DNA of 64,000 nt, taken from the IMG/VR virus record IMGVR_UViG_3300009031_000221, positions 352,001-416,000 of that record. One strand, 5' to 3'. The notes under the pieces were generated by a model that ran no database searches, had not been told where the DNA came from, and saw nothing but the letters and a program-made list of their open reading frames with translations. The stretch comes from a virus (lineage: Duplodnaviria; Caudoviricetes). Made by a program: the position numbers and the translations under genes. Each line of letters begins with the position of its first letter. The first letter of the stretch is position 1. Of this stretch, positions 2,534 to 10,515 are shown in pieces.

Positions 2534-2755
2534 CTACCTACCGAACCATTCGGATACCGCAATAGCATTGTCTACATAGCTCTTGGTGCCTAAGTCATTA
2601 CTGCCTACGGGAGTATCCCCCCGAACGATGACATAGCCCGTATCGGTTGAATTGCGTGTTTCCACAACTCCAGAGTTGTTCTTTATGATCGGCCCGCCTA
2701 ACCCAATCTGGAAAGTGGCTTCTACCGTACCCTTGATTTTCGACCAAAGAGACAT
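2534..2755 (-). CDS. small virion protein, paralogous to the N-terminus of 2767-3588
   Basis: MSLWSKIKGTVEATFQIGLGGP...VRGDTPVGSNDLGTKSYVD; DLxTKxYV tail-fibre-type motif. Confidence 0.65.
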   Translation of the reverse strand: MSLWSKIKGTVEATFQIGLGGPIIKNNSGVVETRNSTDTGYVIVRGDTPVGSNDLGTKSYVDNAIAVSEWFGR

Positions 2756-2766
2756 CCACCCACCTA

Positions 2767-3588
2767 TTAAGCGTCAGGCATGGTGTACTTGACGATACAG
2801 AATCCTGCACCTGCAGCCGGGATCACACCCCCTACGGTGACCGTAACCTCGATTTCGGTCACTCCCCAGTCCGTATCCTGCATGGATTGGTATATCCCAG
2901 CAACCGTAGCAAGATTGTCGGACGTAGATTGGAGCAAAGCCAATGATAAAGTACGACCTACGGTGATGGTCGTACCTGCGTCGTATGGAGTCACGATGTC
3001 TAAGGTGGCTTCCGTTACCACGGCATTAGCCGGAATCTTGGCCGTGGATGCCTGTGTTGCCGCGAGCGCAATTGGCATACGGAGTTCCCGAATCGCTCCA
3101 GATACCCCACTAGGGCCCGCGGCTATCCAGGACACCCCATCGGTGTCCCACACGTAAGGGGAGTCTGCTTTGAACGTTACCGTGCCTCCCGTCAAAGCCA
3201 CAGTCGTTACGATCATTCGGGCTGCTGCGGGGATGATCGTCAGCGGTAGCCCATCATTCAACCCGTTATCCCAGATCAATTCACCAATGGCTGCGACACC
3301 ACCCGTTGTAGACACTACGTAGTAGCGACGAGTAACTGTGTTGTTGGTCAATGCAACCGCACCATCCCACTCCCCCGTCACGATGGTTGGGGCAGCTACC
3401 GTCCCAACATACATCTTGGTGGTGAGATCATTATCGCCAATCGGTGTCGCACCTCGAACGATAGCATATCCGGAATCCGCTGAATTGCGGGCGTCCACTG
3501 CACCGGAACTGTCTTTCAATAAAGGGCCCCCCAAACCAAGTTGGAAACGATCCTCAATGGTTCCTATAATTTTCGACCATAGCGACAT
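2767..3588 (-). CDS. putative virion/tail-fibre-associated protein
   Basis: MSLWSKIIGTIEDRFQLGLGGP...DNDLTTKMYV; G/T/V rich. Confidence 0.65.
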   Translation of the reverse strand: MSLWSKIIGTIEDRFQLGLGGPLLKDSSGAVDARNSADSGYAIVRGATPIGDNDLTTKMYVGTVAAPTIVTGEWDGAVALTNNTVTRRYYVVSTTGGVAAIGELIWDNGLNDGLPLTIIPAAARMIVTTVALTGGTVTFKADSPYVWDTDGVSWIAAGPSGVSGAIRELRMPIALAATQASTAKIPANAVVTEATLDIVTPYDAGTTITVGRTLSLALLQSTSDNLATVAGIYQSMQDTDWGVTEIEVTVTVGGVIPAAGAGFCIVKYTMPDA

Positions 3589-4036: not shown

Positions 4037-4864
4037 CTATGCGGGATCAATTTGGCACCCCATCGTATATTCCCCGACCGGAATAGGCGTACCAATAGCA
4101 TCACCGCATAACAATACCATTGAAGTGAACCTTGCTTCCTCGAGAAGCATCGCTTCATTCGCCTTCAACAAATCAATCAAGTATCTGGAGGAACTTGTCA
4201 ATGTACATGCAGCCTTATCCAGCACGCTCATCTTGAGCCGCTTCCGCTCCTGATTCAGGCACGCCAACACTTCCCGTAGCATGAAGTCATCCCGGAGTTC
4301 CTGATCCAATGCCGTGTCCAACCACACAATCATGTCGGGCTCGATGATAAGCGGCAACCCATCCTTAGGCTTGACCGTGAATACCAAATCCTCCGGCATT
4401 AGCATAACATCATGCAATGTGATAGATCCAACGTTAGCCATTTCCTCACGGTAATGATCAATCTCGGTGCTATTCCACTGCGAAACCGTCTGTTTGATGG
4501 TAGGCAGCGCCTTCCCGGCTTTCCTACCCAACGTGGGGAAGTTCAACTTGACTTCGGAATCTAACAGGTTATGCCATTTATCCTCGACCCAGGCCACACG
4601 GCGAACGTTCAGTTCTTCCGTGATGTAGGACTCATATACGGACGATTCACAGTAGCCCTTGTACGTGCAGGGCACGAAGAAGTTGTGGTCTACATGGTAC
4701 TCATAGTCCTTGAAACAAACGGAGATTTTGTTCAAGCGCTGCCTAGTATGCATTCCGGTCTTGTTCCGTAGGCTATGCCCGATGGCACAAATACGTCGGA
4801 TCAATGCCATCCTACGCATCAAATGATCGGATTCAAACCCACGTACGGAATAGTCTAGATTCAT
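4037..4864 (-). CDS. stand-alone C-terminal domain of type-2 isoleucyl-tRNA synthetase (DUF5915-like)
   Basis: RMALIRRICAIGHSLRNKTGMHTRQRL; ITEELNVRRV; KLNFPTLGRKAGK; VWLDTALDQELRDDFMLRE..RK. No HIGH/KMSKS catalytic core. Confidence 0.75.
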   Translation of the reverse strand: MNLDYSVRGFESDHLMRRMALIRRICAIGHSLRNKTGMHTRQRLNKISVCFKDYEYHVDHNFFVPCTYKGYCESSVYESYITEELNVRRVAWVEDKWHNLLDSEVKLNFPTLGRKAGKALPTIKQTVSQWNSTEIDHYREEMANVGSITLHDVMLMPEDLVFTVKPKDGLPLIIEPDMIVWLDTALDQELRDDFMLREVLACLNQERKRLKMSVLDKAACTLTSSSRYLIDLLKANEAMLLEEARFTSMVLLCGDAIGTPIPVGEYTMGCQIDPA

Positions 4865-5427
4865 TTGCGTTTGCCCTCGTGAGGGGGTTGAAGTAGCTTA
4901 GGGTTCCCCACGATATCCTCTGGTTTCCCTGCCAATAGCATCTGTTGTGCCGCAAGAACTGCCCAACAGGACGAAGATGAGTGGATGGTTTGGTAGTAAC
5001 CTAGCAGCACGTCAGGACGGACGACATGCCATCCTTGAGGAGTCTGGATGCTCTCAACGTCCTTCACGAAGAAGTCAATGGTCAGGCGGAAGGCAGGGTT
5101 CCTACCATCATCTTCAGTCTTTTCGTACCGGCGAAAGTCCTCAGGGGAAGGTAGCCGATCGTACTTGGTTGCGACCTTGCTGAATCCATTGGACAGCAGG
5201 AGGCCCATGACGAGGTGAACCTTCTTTGAAGGCACCATCAAGTCCAAATCCTTGTGATCATGTGCGTGTTTGTATTCGGGATGCCCTGGGGGAGACATAA
5301 AGTGCCACGCCCAGCCGCCTGAAAGGACGACATGGTCACGTAGGATATCAAGGACTGGCAGCATAGCGTCGATGCGATACTGCGGCCATAGCTCCCCATA
5401 ACGGGCAGGATTGTGCGGATTACTCAT
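4861..5427 (-). CDS. nucleotidyltransferase-superfamily protein
   Basis: VLSGGWA...HKDLDLMV and IDFF motifs of the pol-beta-like NTase fold. Start moved to MSNPHN because a promoter motif lies at 5457-5483. Confidence 0.65.
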   Translation of the reverse strand: MSNPHNPARYGELWPQYRIDAMLPVLDILRDHVVLSGGWAWHFMSPPGHPEYKHAHDHKDLDLMVPSKKVHLVMGLLLSNGFSKVATKYDRLPSPEDFRRYEKTEDDGRNPAFRLTIDFFVKDVESIQTPQGWHVVRPDVLLGYYQTIHSSSSCWAVLAAQQMLLAGKPEDIVGNPKLLQPPHEGKRK

Positions 5428-5453: not shown

Positions 5454-5939
5454 CTATTCTACGCAGTGGCCGCGGTAAGTAAGCTCCTTGGGCCGTTCCC
5501 ACTTGACACGCTTTTTCAATGTGTCATTCCACTGGAACCATCCCCTAGACAAATCTCCCGAACCATTGCATTCGCAGTAGGCGCATCGTTCTACCCACGG
5601 TGTCACGCACGTTCCATCCATGCGGTGGATAAGGTGCAACTCGACTGAATTTGTAGACGTATCCTTGCCAATCTGATGCTCTTTAGCTGTTATGATATTC
5701 CACTCATGGTAGTTATACCAGGGCTGTGTCCCTGCAAGGTTAGGCCGCTCGGTACCTACTATGTCTATCTGCGCTACTACGTCTTGCTGAGGTTCCCCAT
5801 AACGTGCGTAGACCATGATCGGATCCCCTACCTTGAGAGGGCATGGCGGGGCCACGTAGGACTCACAACGCTTTGCATCCTCCGGGTTGTCCCATATATG
5901 ACCGCAGGCTTCACATTGGTAGGTTGTCAGAATCTTCAT
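5454..5939 (-). CDS. hypothetical Zn-finger protein
   Basis: YQCEACGH...C and CAYCEC motifs. Confidence 0.6.
   Translation of the reverse strand: MKILTTYQCEACGHIWDNPEDAKRCESYVAPPCPLKVGDPIMVYARYGEPQQDVVAQIDIVGTERPNLAGTQPWYNYHEWNIITAKEHQIGKDTSTNSVELHLIHRMDGTCVTPWVERCAYCECNGSGDLSRGWFQWNDTLKKRVKWERPKELTYRGHCVE
5457..5483 (-). promoter_or_regulatory. conserved phage promoter-like motif, copy 1
   Basis: + strand ttctacgc-agtggccgcggt-aagtaag. Confidence 0.7.
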
Positions 5940-6094
5940 TGATCAAACCTTAGGGGTTCCCGATCTTGTCTAGCCTTGCATCCCTTCCGCCGGCACCAAC
6001 GAGTCCAAGGAGGTTTGCATTCCCTACCCCAAACCCACTCCGTCCATTTGTGAAGCCCAAATCGGCATAAGAAACTAGGGACTTCCTCGTCCAT
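5936..6094 (-). CDS. small Cys/His phage protein (52 aa, below the ORF-track cutoff)
   Basis: MDEEVPSFLCRFGLHKWTEW...RWCRRKGC; fills the gap with ATGA overlaps. Confidence 0.55.
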   Translation of the reverse strand: MDEEVPSFLCRFGLHKWTEWVWGRECKPPWTRWCRRKGCKARQDREPLRFDQ

Positions 6095-7770
6095 CATGAA
6101 CGCCTCTTCGCTAACGGCAACCAGTACGTGCCTTCACACAGGAAGGGCAACCCCGTAGTAGATGACTCCCAGCATGGCGTAGGATACCGCTTATCGGATT
6201 TCAACTGCCCGACGTGGAAGAACGGCGAGGCGTCAATGACGACCTCCACTCCCGGGGCAGGAAGTTCCTGGGTCGAATCCCGCCAACGAAGCCTATCCGC
6301 GACTTCATCCGCAAGATTTTCAACCGTATTGACTCCCGTGAATACATCCCCAGCCTTGCACCCGATCAACTCAGGCTGATCCTTATCGGTCAGGACATAG
6401 CCCAAAGCCCGACCCAGAATCTGATCTACCTCGCGAGATGATTTGAGGCACGCATCCTTCCAATGCTTGACATCGTGCATCAACTCTTGAACCTTCGTCT
6501 GAAGGCGAGAGATCTCAAATTCCGTTGCTGCATGCCCCGTGCTTCCCAATCCCTTGAACTGCTGCTCAACCGGTGGTGCCGGAACCTTCTCCGTAAATAT
6601 GCCCACGGGGTTATCCACTGAGAATGCCTGCTCAATAGCCTTAGTCGGGGATACTTCTTGCAGCCGGATACGGAAACTCGCCATGTCCTTCCAAGGGAAA
6701 TTCTTGGGATCCGTTTCATCCGTGTACGCAATCAGAACAGGCAAGCTATACAGGCTACGACTGTGATACCATGTCATCAAACTATCAAAATCATGGAAGT
6801 TGTATGTCAAACCCAAAGCCTTGAGCTTCCATTCCTTCGGTGCCGTCCAACCAATGGGTTCCGTTTCCGTAGGCTTCGTTTCCTCGGGCTCTTCCTCGAA
6901 CTGGTCCCTTTCCTTCCAGTTCTCATCGAACTCTTTCTGAGCCATTGCCTTGTTGAAAGCATCGGTAGGCGTATGCCAATATCGGAGTTGTTCACGGAAG
7001 GATTCAAAAAGCTTCCACGTCTTCCCCTGCGTATTGGACACAAGCCAATCGGACATGAGCCAAAGTGTATGCTGACTTGAGTCGTATAGCGTCATTGCAA
7101 GATCCACCCATTCCAGCATCTTGTAATGATCGGAGAAAGGCCAAGTCTCCTCATCGGAAATCTTCAGGAGCCACGGGGAGTCTAGTGGAACCGCCACGAG
7201 ATCAAACGTACCCTTCGTGAAGGTGTACGTGTCCGCAACCACATGGAACGGCTGTCCCGTAGCCACCATGACGCTATAGATGGCGTCATAGGACTTCCAA
7301 GTCTTGCCGTCATCCTTGGATACGATCCTGTTCTCCTTGTCCGTGAAAGTTCCCGCCCACGCAAGCAAATCCTTCGTGGACTTGAAGTTTATGCCGATCT
7401 GGCCGTCGTACTTCACCTTCCACTTGACCGGCTTGCCGGGGCATTCATCGGTTTCGCCATCCGGATACTCATGGCAGATCGAACACCTCCCATGAAGGTC
7501 ATCTACATCATGCTGCAACTGTGCTACGTGCTTGACCGATTCCCCAGGGCAATTCTCGTTCTCATTGGCGTCCGTCATATCCACGCCGCAGTTCCCGCAG
7601 TGATCCAGAGGTCGGCAGCATGCGGTAGCTCTATTGTGCTTCATGTTCGTTTTCCTTTCATCGTCGTCTAGGATGACACCAGCATAATCCCAATCACATA
7701 CGGTACACTTGAACTGTGCCAAGTGTATTTCTACCATCTTGGCGCCGCACTCAATGCAAAATTCCATCAT
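6094..7770 (-). CDS. multidomain hypothetical protein (Cys-rich N-terminus, three internal repeats, DUF551-like C-terminus)
   Basis: CxxC clusters; three W-x-L/V...F...L..W...(K/P)TW/PW units; W...T.ELP...VEV...YWLPL tail. Confidence 0.65.
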   Translation of the reverse strand: MMEFCIECGAKMVEIHLAQFKCTVCDWDYAGVILDDDERKTNMKHNRATACCRPLDHCGNCGVDMTDANENENCPGESVKHVAQLQHDVDDLHGRCSICHEYPDGETDECPGKPVKWKVKYDGQIGINFKSTKDLLAWAGTFTDKENRIVSKDDGKTWKSYDAIYSVMVATGQPFHVVADTYTFTKGTFDLVAVPLDSPWLLKISDEETWPFSDHYKMLEWVDLAMTLYDSSQHTLWLMSDWLVSNTQGKTWKLFESFREQLRYWHTPTDAFNKAMAQKEFDENWKERDQFEEEPEETKPTETEPIGWTAPKEWKLKALGLTYNFHDFDSLMTWYHSRSLYSLPVLIAYTDETDPKNFPWKDMASFRIRLQEVSPTKAIEQAFSVDNPVGIFTEKVPAPPVEQQFKGLGSTGHAATEFEISRLQTKVQELMHDVKHWKDACLKSSREVDQILGRALGYVLTDKDQPELIGCKAGDVFTGVNTVENLADEVADRLRWRDSTQELPAPGVEVVIDASPFFHVGQLKSDKRYPTPCWESSTTGLPFLCEGTYWLPLAKRRS

Positions 7771-9897: not shown

Positions 9898-10515
9898 TTA
9901 CGCCAACATCTGGAATAGTTTCTCGTCGCCCTTGCAGTGATCCTTCAGACGTGCTAGCCACGCGAAGGACTTGACCTTGAACATTAGGGGCAGTCCCGTC
10001 TTCCGGTTAGCGGCACCCTTGCATACGACACCCTCGAAGGGCATACCCGGCAAGGTTCCATTACGGATGGCTGCCTCGATGTCCTTGGTGAAGTTCCCGT
10101 AGTACAGAATCTCCTGCACGGGAAGGTGCCCGAATAGCTTTTGGAACGCAGCAGGCTCGAGAAACCCCTGCTTGAACACGCTGACATCGAACAGGCGGAC
10201 TTCCTGCTTCTCGGATTCATCGTGTGTTCCTGCGAAGGACTTCGGCCCGTAGAACTCCGCGAACAAGGTGGCCTGCTGCCAACGTTCCTTCTTGAATATG
10301 ACGGGCAAGGTGTCCCCATAGCGCTCCATGAACAGGTCAGGGAATCGCTTCAGGATGGGGTTGGAATCGTCTAGTAGACCATTCCGGCGCCCCCACTTGG
10401 CGAATCCCTTCTTGGAATCATATTCAACCCGCATGCATGATCCGTCATACTTTCCGAATACATAGACGGGCACGCCGTAGTGGATCTCTGGGGAAATGGA
10501 AGGGTAGGATTTCAT
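9898..10515 (-). CDS. RNA ligase-like adenylation-domain protein
   Basis: Motif I KYDGS, motif III EFYG, IIIa FDV, IV EGVV, V FKVK. Confidence 0.75.
   Translation of the reverse strand: MKSYPSISPEIHYGVPVYVFGKYDGSCMRVEYDSKKGFAKWGRRNGLLDDSNPILKRFPDLFMERYGDTLPVIFKKERWQQATLFAEFYGPKSFAGTHDESEKQEVRLFDVSVFKQGFLEPAAFQKLFGHLPVQEILYYGNFTKDIEAAIRNGTLPGMPFEGVVCKGAANRKTGLPLMFKVKSFAWLARLKDHCKGDEKLFQMLA

What the first reader, a model, noticed from the sequence alone, without database searches (positions are those of the whole stretch)
4037..4864. Stand-alone IleRS-type-2 C-terminal domain with no catalytic core
Seen: the ORF starts where the anticodon-binding domain ends (RMALIRRICAIGHSLR..TRQRL) and covers the rest of the IleRS2 C-terminus. 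The upstream gene is unrelated and there are no HIGH/KMSKS remnants. Known: this region contacts tRNA. Inference: it could be a tRNA-binding chaperone, a decoy that shields tRNA from anticodon nucleases, or an inhibitor of host IleRS.
Basis: partly seen in the sequence, partly recalled or inferred. Interest (0 to 1): 0.65.

Follow-up and report, generated by a model that had tools for sequence, protein, structure and literature searches.

The report
Phage lone IleRS tRNA-recognition module
A 536-kb groundwater phage carries an intact gene for only the tRNA-gripping tail of a type-2 isoleucyl-tRNA synthetase, with no enzyme part anywhere in its genome. It sits directly behind an RNA-repair-associated nucleotidyltransferase gene, so it is probably a tRNA-binding helper, but it is a one-off with no known relatives and its role is untested.

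Summary
Window 4037-4864 (- strand) is an intact 275-aa ORF that matches Pfam DUF5915 (86 bits; cut-off 27). It aligns from the domain linker to the last residue with the ARD2-INS-ARD3 tail of type-2 IleRS. The AF2 model (pLDDT 90.7) matches PmIleRS2 and the yeast IleRS-tRNA complex (Foldseek E 1e-18 to 1e-15).

No class-I catalytic core or Anticodon_1 domain exists in the complete 536-kb phage record, so it is not a split enzyme.

The residues shown experimentally to contact tRNA are kept:
- D-loop K/F of INS = K106/F109.
- Wobble-base pocket Q-R-K-L = N204/R207/K208/M212.

The start has a GAGGG Shine-Dalgarno site and an ATGA overlap with the upstream gene. Codon usage equals the phage's.

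Against a clear function: it is a singleton. Every "stand-alone" database look-alike I checked was a broken call of a full ileS. Related huge phages lack it. Its tree branch is 3.4 times the median, and it keeps 78% of highly conserved columns against 96% for the enzymes.

The upstream gene belongs to a large Pol-beta NTase family that lies in RtcB/PrfH, KptA and RNA-ligase neighbourhoods.

Best reading (about 0.45): a non-catalytic tRNA binder recruited to tRNA repair or maintenance. Main rival (about 0.25): a gene remnant.

The scan has noted analogous lone tRNA-binding synthetase modules in other phages.

The parts
4037..4864 (-). Whole gene for the stand-alone IleRS2 C-terminal module (275 aa, P0001; stop at 4037-4039)
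   Evidence: ORF list and translation; PF19302 at 85.8 bits; AF2 pLDDT 90.7; Foldseek top hits are PmIleRS2 and ScIleRS
4583..4843 (-). ARD2 (yeast C-ter A), first part, residues 8-94. It includes the invariant R33 and a phage-specific insertion of about 14 residues (about 60-73) with low pLDDT
   Evidence: Alignment A1; secondary structure and pLDDT blocks; the role of the yeast Arg838 equivalent is described in PMC11685878
4367..4582 (-). INS subdomain (yeast C-ter B), residues 95-166, with K106 and F109 at the positions of PmIleRS2 K862 and F865 (D-loop contacts)
   Evidence: phmmer alignment to 8c9d; INS = Pm residues 851-923 and the K862/F865 kinetics
4313..4366 (-). ARD2, returning strands, residues 167-184
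   Evidence: AF2 secondary structure; alignment A1
4040..4312 (-). ARD3 (yeast C-ter C), residues 185-275. The wobble-base (N34) pocket N204, R207, K208, M212 corresponds to PmIleRS2 Q961, R964, K965, L969
   Evidence: for the mapping; for the function of these residues (R964A and yeast R999A abolish charging)
4862..4882 (-). Start region: GAGGG Shine-Dalgarno site 9 nt before the ATG at 4864-4862. The ATG overlaps the stop of the upstream NTase gene (ATGA)
   Evidence: Sequence read; gene calls of other assemblies use this start
4861..5427 (-). Upstream operon partner: 188-aa Pol-beta-fold nucleotidyltransferase (P0152) of a large RNA-repair-associated family
   Evidence: 575 homologues at 50-69% identity; invariant SGGWAWHF and HDHKD.D motifs; Atlas neighbours are NTase and AbiEii-like folds; neighbourhoods with RtcB, PrfH, KptA and Rnl
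9898..10515 (-). Rnl-type RNA ligase on the same strand, 4.5 kb upstream. In the sister phage its homologue lies about 0.7 kb from the NTase
   Evidence: PF09414 and phrog_548; 49% identical homologue at L008 4703-5311, next to the NTase at 6001-6555

Best explanation
The gene encodes a folded, non-catalytic protein made of the complete tRNA-recognition tail of a bacterial type-2 isoleucyl-tRNA synthetase (ARD2 with its INS insertion, then ARD3). In the enzyme, INS grips the tRNA elbow and D-loop and raises tRNA affinity, and an arginine in ARD3 reads the flipped-out wobble base 34. The phage copy keeps both sets of contacts but lacks ARD1 (which reads A35/U36), the editing domain and the catalytic domain. 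It can therefore at most bind tRNA, with a preference for a G, U or I wobble base. It cannot charge tRNA. It is translationally coupled to a Pol-beta nucleotidyltransferase whose relatives sit in RtcB/PrfH, KptA and RNA-ligase operons. I therefore propose that it acts as a tRNA-recognition accessory in the phage's tRNA repair or maintenance programme. It would hold or select anticodon-loop-damaged tRNA for the NTase and ligase. Shown: domain identity, integrity, absence of the core, retained contact residues, operon structure and the NTase neighbourhoods. Inferred: tRNA binding in isolation, the partner, and the repair role.
For: Domain identity and fold:
- PF19302 at 85.8 bits.
- AF2 pLDDT 90.7, pTM 0.81.
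- Foldseek 8c9d/8c8v E 1e-18 and 8wnd (yeast IleRS-tRNA) E 2e-15 over 265-273 columns.

Clean boundary:
- Homology starts at the ARD1/ARD2 linker and runs to the C-terminus.

Contact residues kept:
- K106/F109 correspond to K862/F865.
- R207/K208 correspond to R964/K965.
- N204 and M212 are conservative replacements for Q961 and L969.
- INS is retained although many prokaryotic enzymes are losing it, and INS 'primarily enhances tRNA affinity'.

Signs of a real gene:
- GAGGG Shine-Dalgarno site and ATGA coupling.
- CAI-like index 0.783 against a genome mean of 0.784.
- A 275-codon frame remains open on a branch of 3.75 substitutions per site.
- A 212-nt contig from an independent wastewater study differs by three letters, and the two that were listed are both synonymous.

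Context:
- The phage has 68 tRNAs, including three tRNA-Ile, and a tmRNA.
- There is an Rnl ligase nearby.
- NTase homologues lie in RtcB-NTase-PrfH (Chryseobacterium), in RtcB-PrfH-TPR-NTase-RNase T (Aquimarina), near KptA/ARH/NADAR (Myxococcales), and next to Rnl and RtcB in the sister phage.
- Precedent: RlaP NTases refill damaged tRNA ends before ligation (PMC12776372).
Against: - It is a singleton. There is no relative above 32% identity among 1.8 billion cluster representatives, none in IMG/VR, and none in five related huge phages.
- The sister phage has another gene behind its NTase, so the NTase-CTD pairing is not conserved.
- It has the longest tip branch (3.75 against a median of 1.12).
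- It has the lowest retention of highly conserved columns (14 of 18, against a mean of 96%). The substitutions include P43R and G194F.
- Net charge is -6 and pI is 5.8. This is typical of enzyme tails but not of an avid free tRNA binder.
- Without ARD1 the module lacks A35/U36 reading, so affinity and specificity on its own may be low.
- The NTase is not a member of the characterised RlaP family.
Confidence: 0.45

Rival explanations
1. Non-functional remnant. The phage once captured the 3' end of an ileS gene, or lost the rest of one, and the piece survives as an ORF with no selected role.
For: There are no stand-alone homologues anywhere. It has the fastest-evolving branch and the lowest match to conserved columns in the set. 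The neighbouring synteny is not conserved in the sister phage. No sequence variation is available to measure selection in the groundwater population.
Against: A neutral sequence on a branch of 3.75 changes per site should not keep 275 codons open or fold at pLDDT 90.7. The boundary falls on the domain linker. It has a Shine-Dalgarno site and ATGA coupling. Codon usage is fully phage-like. The key tRNA contacts are kept and most changes are conservative. The two listed differences in an independent contig are synonymous, though that is a very small sample.
Confidence: 0.25
2. Free-acting tRNA shield or decoy. The protein covers the anticodon loop and wobble base of tRNA-Ile, or of G34/U34 tRNAs, to protect them from host anticodon nucleases or from toxins that modify charged tRNA-Ile (for example ItaT-type acetyltransferases; from my own knowledge). 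It would act independently of the NTase.
For: The wobble pocket and elbow contacts are retained. The phage invests heavily in tRNAs. Earlier notes of this scan describe lone tRNA-binding synthetase modules in other phages (unchecked leads).
Against: No tRNA-Ile-specific nuclease is implicated here. The protein is acidic and lacks ARD1, so stoichiometric shielding of an abundant tRNA seems costly. There is no PADLOC or PHROG link. It is a singleton.
Confidence: 0.12
3. Host take-over factor. The protein competes with the host IleRS for tRNA-Ile, or docks on the host IleRS, and so lowers or redirects isoleucine charging.
For: It has the same binding surfaces as the enzyme's own tail. The nearest cellular tails are from IleRS2-using phyla such as Bacteroidota and Myxococcota.
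Against: The phage itself needs Ile-tRNA and encodes three tRNA-Ile genes. A partial module should compete poorly with the full enzyme. There is no supporting context.
Confidence: 0.06
4. Repurposed protein-binding fold. The ARD-type fold is used for protein-protein contacts, as the related UNE-I repeats of vertebrate IARS1 bind EPRS. It may work with a neighbouring gene product and no tRNA.
For: Foldseek also hits the IARS1 UNE-I-EPRS complex 7wrs. Several otherwise near-invariant positions have changed (P43R, G194F). The surface of the first helix that packs on ARD1 in the enzyme is free here (inference).
Against: The residues that are kept are precisely the tRNA-contacting ones. No partner has been identified.
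Confidence: 0.1
5. Half of a split IleRS whose catalytic part is encoded elsewhere in the phage.
Against: There is no PF00133 or PF08264 match in the complete record. tblastn with full-length IleRS2 finds nothing but this piece.
Confidence: 0.02

Closest known systems
C-terminal ARD2-INS-ARD3 of bacterial type-2 IleRS (P. megaterium IleRS2, PDB 8C8V/8C9D; Modrusan et al. 2026, PMC13752280)
   Same: It has the same three subdomains in the same order and the same fold (Foldseek E 1e-18). The D-loop K/F and the wobble-pocket R/K are at the same positions.
   Different: Here it is a separate 275-aa gene with no HUP, CP1/editing or ARD1 domains. It is 23% identical. It has a 14-residue insertion, and the substitutions P43R, E193D/G194F, Q204N and L212M.
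C-ter A/B/C domains of yeast IleRS bound to tRNA-Ile (PDB 8WND; Chen et al. 2024, PMC11685878)
   Same: The architecture matches. The Arg that reads the N34 carbonyl (R999) and its structural twin in C-ter A (R838) are both present (R207, R33).
   Different: The yeast domains act only within the enzyme together with ARD1. The yeast D-loop readers W900/P901/K915 were not mapped residue by residue here.
Free-standing synthetase-derived tRNA binders: Trbp111, Arc1p/EMAP II-type domains, CsaA (PMC11286949)
   Same: The concept is the same: an appended tRNA-binding domain of a synthetase existing as its own gene and binding tRNA without catalysis.
   Different: Those are OB folds related to the MetRS/PheRS appendages and form large conserved cellular families. 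This protein has a different fold, derives from IleRS2, is encoded by a phage, and is a singleton.
UNE-I repeats of vertebrate IARS1 (PDB 7WRS)
   Same: They are related to the ARD-type fold (Foldseek hit).
   Different: UNE-I mediates protein binding in the multi-synthetase complex and is fused to the enzyme.
RlaP (PF10127), RNA-ligase-associated Pol-beta NTase (PMC12776372)
   Same: It serves as a model for the operon partner: an NTase encoded beside RtcB or Rnl ligases that adds 1-2 nucleotides to damaged tRNA before ligation.
   Different: The phage NTase does not match PF10127. No RlaP is known to be paired with a synthetase tail.
Short IleRS-tail proteins of giant viruses in BFVD (Gaeavirus 279 aa, Pithovirus LCPAC101 274 aa, Moumouvirus Monve 171 aa)
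   Same: They have a similar size and fold (Foldseek E 6e-12 to 6e-6).
   Different: They come from eukaryote-infecting viruses and are 10-14% identical. Their gene context could not be inspected, so they may be pieces of broken or split ileS genes.

Membership tests
Pfam PF19302 (DUF5915) = type-2 IleRS C-terminal module | Sequence match above the curated cut-off | tested here: met
   85.8 bits against a cut-off of 27, E 3.7e-24, profile positions 2-165 of 195. The same result came from the genome search.
Pfam PF19302 (DUF5915) = type-2 IleRS C-terminal module | ARD2-INS-ARD3 fold | tested here: met
   AF2 pLDDT 90.7. Foldseek hits 8c9d/8c8v/8c8u at E 1e-18 to 1e-16 with TMq 0.62-0.65, and 8wnd at 2e-15.
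Pfam PF19302 (DUF5915) = type-2 IleRS C-terminal module | Wobble-base pocket Q961/R964/K965/L969 (Pm numbering) | tested here: met
   The phage has N204/R207/K208/M212. The essential Arg and the Lys are identical, and the other two changes are conservative.
Pfam PF19302 (DUF5915) = type-2 IleRS C-terminal module | INS D-loop contacts K862/F865 | tested here: met
   The phage has K106/F109 within KLNF, against KLDF in Pm.
Isoleucyl-tRNA synthetase (enzyme) | Class I HUP catalytic domain with HIGH and KMSKS motifs | tested here: not met
   There is no PF00133 match in the 536-kb record, and no tblastn match to residues 1-800 of two IleRS2 proteins.
Isoleucyl-tRNA synthetase (enzyme) | ARD1 / Anticodon_1 domain that reads A35 and U36 | tested here: not met
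   There is no PF08264 match in the record. The ORF begins after ARD1.
Split two-gene synthetase | A second gene in the same genome that supplies the catalytic half | tested here: not met
   Five related huge phages also lack PF00133.
Free-standing tRNA-binding proteins of the Trbp111/Arc1p type | OB-fold tRNA_bind domain | tested here: not met
   Pfam reports only DUF5915, and the structural neighbours are IleRS tails, not OB folds.
Free-standing tRNA-binding proteins of the Trbp111/Arc1p type | Binds tRNA as an isolated protein | not testable with these tools
   This needs EMSA or filter binding.
RlaP-type RNA-repair NTase operon (for the upstream partner) | NTase matches PF10127 | tested here: not met
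   There is only a weak PF10706 hit at E 0.25, and no PF10127 match in the genome.
RlaP-type RNA-repair NTase operon (for the upstream partner) | NTase gene lies beside RNA ligase or repair genes | tested here: met
   This was seen in Chryseobacterium, Aquimarina, a Myxococcales MAG and the sister phage. Only four contexts were inspected.

The most novel reading that the evidence does not exclude
The module is a wobble-base reader for untemplated anticodon repair. Ribotoxins of the RloC type excise nucleotide 34. The coupled NTase would refill the gap. The ARD3 pocket accepts only a base with a carbonyl at the G6/U4 position, and INS would hold the elbow. Together they would select or proofread the correctly refilled tRNA before the Rnl ligase seals it. 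This would give sequence fidelity to a repair step that RlaP-type enzymes perform blindly.
Probability: 0.08. Interest if true: 0.85.

Novelty: new variant of a known kind. Interest (0 to 1): 0.48.

Why it matters
Free-standing copies of synthetase appendages such as Trbp111, AlaX and YbaK have shown how translation factors are built from modules. No free-standing type-2 IleRS tail turned up in my searches of the held paper library or the sequence and structure databases. If this one binds tRNA, it would isolate the elbow and wobble-base clamp that a 2026 study shows is being remodelled across prokaryotes. It would also give a minimal protein for studying wobble-base reading. Its coupling to an uncharacterised NTase family found in RNA-repair neighbourhoods (four contexts inspected) points to a way phages might recognise damaged tRNA. 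The same NTase family, found in RtcB-PrfH operons of Bacteroidota, deserves study in its own right. The caveat is that this is one gene in one uncultivated phage lineage.

Tried and rejected
- AF2 on the single sequence gave a useless model (pLDDT 30). Only the alignment-based model was used.
- PHROGs and PADLOC gave no hit for the gene or its immediate neighbours.
- The word-based homologue search found only the gene itself at near length and nothing at shorter length.
- Of the roughly 240-aa 'DUF5915-only' proteins from the exhaustive search, the three I inspected (P0003, P0008, P0037) turned out to be frameshifted or mis-called full ileS genes. The similar Atlas clusters were not inspected. 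Four short ORFs among 80 cellular loci were broken genes too.
- The two 'Bacteriophage sp.' GenBank hits hold full-length ileS genes of 1036 and 1052 aa.
- The search for related loci in IMG/VR found nothing with the protein or with a six-sequence alignment. The 33-sequence alignment had no usable pattern.
- Complex prediction for NTase plus this protein gave no verdict (score 0.00). This is not evidence either way.
- No RNA holder is listed among public runs, so expression could not be assessed.
- The groundwater contigs are identical, so dN/dS is impossible. The single 212-nt wastewater contig is too small to count as a test.
- There is no TilS (PF01171) in the phage, so no link to lysidine-tRNA-Ile could be built.
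- The 305-aa gene behind the NTase of another phage (L010) is unrelated.
- A weak tblastn hit at genome position 505,366-505,593 (E 0.10) was treated as noise, because PF19302 finds one copy only.

Full report
WHAT IS THERE

The window is positions 352,001-416,000 of a 536,053-bp IMG/VR virus record that CheckV rates complete. The record has 52% GC and carries 68 tRNA genes and a tmRNA, among them tRNA-Ile(GAU) twice and tRNA-Ile(AAU) once.

The finding's ORF (4037-4864, - strand) is open for 275 codons. It matches Pfam DUF5915, the family model for the C-terminus of type-2 isoleucyl-tRNA synthetase (IleRS2), at 85.8 bits against a cut-off of 27. It also matches the tails of the MupA/MupB IleRS2 models. 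phmmer puts residues 14-224 on residues 787-981 of Priestia megaterium IleRS2. In a 33-sequence alignment the homology runs from the inter-domain linker to the very last strand.

A single-sequence AF2 run failed. With that alignment the model reaches pLDDT 90.7 and pTM 0.81. Foldseek returns only IleRS2 tails at the top:
- PmIleRS2 at E 1e-18.
- The yeast IleRS-tRNA complex 8WND at E 2e-15.
- Both over 265-273 aligned columns.

In the nomenclature of Modrusan et al. 2026 (PMC13752280) the protein is made of:
- ARD2, residues about 8-94 and 167-184.
- The INS insertion, residues 95-166.
- ARD3, residues 185-275.

So the ORF starts exactly where ARD1, the classical anticodon-binding domain, ends.

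NOT AN ENZYME AND NOT A SPLIT ENZYME

PF00133 (class I catalytic domain) and PF08264 (Anticodon_1) find nothing in the whole record, while the controls ring in all 14 reference genomes. tblastn with two full-length IleRS2 proteins finds only this tail.

The junctions are real. Eleven contigs carry the same protein. The three loci fetched, which span NTase, this gene and the next gene, are 100% identical in DNA.

IS IT A LIVE GENE?

Evidence for:
- The ATG at 4864 has a GAGGG site 9 nt upstream and overlaps the stop of the upstream gene (ATGA).
- The IMG gene call starts at Met38, but residues 14-37 are homologous to IleRS2 and include an invariant column. The long form is therefore right, as other gene callers also found.
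- Codon usage is indistinguishable from the phage's long ORFs: index 0.783 against 0.784 +/- 0.037, and GC3 0.62 against 0.58 +/- 0.08. It is not a recent import.
- The residues with experimentally shown tRNA roles are kept. PmIleRS2 K862/F865 (D-loop; mutants raise KM tenfold) correspond to K106/F109. The wobble-base pocket Q961/R964/K965/L969 (R964A and yeast R999A abolish charging) corresponds to N204/R207/K208/M212.
- INS is retained, although many prokaryotic enzymes are losing it and it 'primarily enhances tRNA affinity'.
- A 212-nt contig from an unrelated wastewater study matches 4315-4526 with three differences. The two that were listed are both third-position synonymous changes, V161 and D136. 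This is a hint, not a test.

Evidence against:
- The gene has no relatives. The exhaustive HMMER search of 1.8 billion cluster representatives gives a best non-self hit of 32% identity.
- Many top hits are 190-360-aa 'DUF5915-only' proteins. The three I inspected are broken or mis-called full ileS genes. All 80 cellular loci fetched are full-length ileS, and the four exceptions are frameshifted.
- Nothing is found in IMG/VR, nor in five related huge phages, which also lack any class I core.
- In an ML tree the phage copy has the longest tip: 3.75 substitutions per site against a median of 1.12.
- It keeps 14 of 18 columns that are at least 90% conserved, against a mean of 96% and a minimum of 84% for enzyme tails. 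The losses include P43R and E193D/G194F.
- Its charge (pI 5.8, net -6) is that of an ordinary enzyme tail, not of an avid RNA binder.
- The groundwater population shows no variation, so dN/dS cannot be computed.

My reading is that constraint is altered or accelerated after release from the enzyme, not that the gene is decaying. A neutral sequence on so long a branch would not stay open for 275 codons. It would not end on a domain linker, and it would not keep precisely the tRNA contacts.

CONTEXT

The gene sits in a tightly packed run of genes on the same strand.

The gene directly upstream, coupled by the ATGA overlap, is a 188-aa Pol-beta-fold nucleotidyltransferase. It has invariant SGGWAWHF and HDHKD.D motifs. 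Its family has at least 575 members at 50-69% identity in huge phages, Bacteroidota and Myxococcota. Pfam gives only a weak aminoglycoside-NTase hit. Atlas structure neighbours are NTase and AbiEii-like proteins.

The NTase family's neighbourhoods are consistent:
- Chryseobacterium: RtcB - NTase - RF-1/PrfH-like.
- Aquimarina: RtcB - RF-1 - TPR - NTase - RNase T-like.
- A Myxococcales MAG: near KptA/Tpt1, an ADP-ribosylglycohydrolase and NADAR.
- The closest sister phage (517 kb, NTase 68% identical): RtcB, then an Rnl-type ligase 49% identical to the one at window 9898-10515, then two small genes, then the NTase.

RtcB-PrfH is a known ribosome and RNA repair module (PMC9304027, listed). A different NTase family, RlaP, is encoded beside RNA ligases. 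It adds one or two nucleotides to damaged tRNA so that ligation restores a chargeable tRNA, for example after RloC removes the wobble nucleotide (PMC12776372). The phage NTase is not an RlaP but occupies the same kind of neighbourhood.

The pairing with the IleRS tail is unique to this phage. The sister phage and others have unrelated genes behind their NTase. A complex prediction gave no verdict.

MECHANISM PROPOSED

The protein is most likely a non-catalytic tRNA binder that clamps the elbow (INS) and the flipped-out wobble base (ARD3). It lacks A35/U36 reading, so it would prefer tRNAs with a carbonyl-bearing base 34 (G, U or I) and would not be strictly specific for tRNA-Ile.

Given its coupling to an RNA-repair-type NTase and the nearby ligase, I favour an accessory role in tRNA repair or maintenance (0.45). 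The alternatives are:
- Remnant (0.25).
- Free shield or decoy (0.12).
- Repurposed protein-binding fold (0.10).
- Competitor of the host IleRS (0.06).
- Split enzyme (0.02).

The most novel reading still open is a wobble-base proofreader for NTase-mediated refilling of excised nucleotide 34 (about 0.08).

COMPARISON AND NOVELTY

It is a member of DUF5915 by sequence, fold and contact residues. It is not an IleRS, because the catalytic domain and ARD1 are absent.

Functionally the nearest concept is the free-standing synthetase appendage, such as Trbp111 or Arc1p (PMC11286949), but with another fold and origin.

BFVD holds short IleRS-tail proteins from giant viruses. I could not see their context.

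Earlier notes of this scan report lone LysRS-I and SerRS tRNA-binding modules in other phages. These are unchecked, but they suggest a recurring phage theme. The same stretch was also noted twice before in this genome, with the NTase pairing pointed out.

I rate it a new variant of a known kind. It is moderately interesting, limited by its singleton status and by the lack of any functional data.

Noticed in passing
window 4861-5427 (-); loci L008, L021, L103, L104: The upstream 188-aa Pol-beta NTase belongs to a large, uncharacterised and strongly conserved family (575+ members, 50-69% identity). In Bacteroidota it sits inside RtcB-PrfH operons. In a Myxococcales MAG it lies near KptA/ARH/NADAR. 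In a sister phage it is next to Rnl and RtcB. It is not RlaP (PF10127). It is a candidate new RNA-repair enzyme.
   Followed up: partly
genome C1:251503-251575 and 483473-483562 (outside the window): ARAGORN calls a tRNA-Ile with anticodon AAU, which is unusual for bacteria and would need A34-to-I editing. It also calls a lone suppressor-like tRNA with anticodon UUA far from the tRNA arrays.
   Followed up: no
window 2534-2755 and 2767-3588 (-): Two adjacent genes share a nearly identical N-terminal stretch of about 60 residues (MSLWSKI.GT.E..FQ.GLGGP...). One is 73 aa and the other 273 aa. They are followed by a 269-aa protein with a weak Laminin_G_3 hit, so they may be fibre- or receptor-binding-type paralogues.
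   Followed up: no
window 5454-5939, 5936-6097 and 6094-7770 (-): Three overlapping upstream genes are rich in CxxC zinc-ribbon motifs (161 aa with a weak DUF7128 hit, then 53 aa and 558 aa). None has a Pfam or PHROG family above threshold.
   Followed up: no
BFVD hits A0A3G4ZYE7, A0A481Z4V0, H2EEY9: Giant viruses (Gaeavirus, Pithovirus LCPAC101, Moumouvirus Monve) have 171-279-aa proteins with the IleRS2-tail fold. They could be lone tails or pieces of broken ileS genes.
   Followed up: no
L003 (MT835536.1) and L004 (MT835484.1): Two GenBank 'UNVERIFIED Bacteriophage sp.' scaffolds from human faeces carry full-length ileS genes of 1052 and 1036 aa. Whether they are bacterial DNA mislabelled as phage was not checked.
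   Followed up: partly
L086 (Winogradskyella psychrotolerans RS-3) and L077, L005, L006, L007: ileS appears in two or three frames in several draft genomes and MAGs. This produces spurious 'DUF5915-only' proteins of about 240 aa in protein databases, and may also explain the similar ESM Atlas clusters, which were not inspected.
   Followed up: yes
window 4315-4526: A 212-nt contig in a 2025 wastewater metagenome is 98.6% identical to this part of the gene. A close relative of the phage, or of the gene, therefore exists outside the groundwater site.
   Followed up: partly
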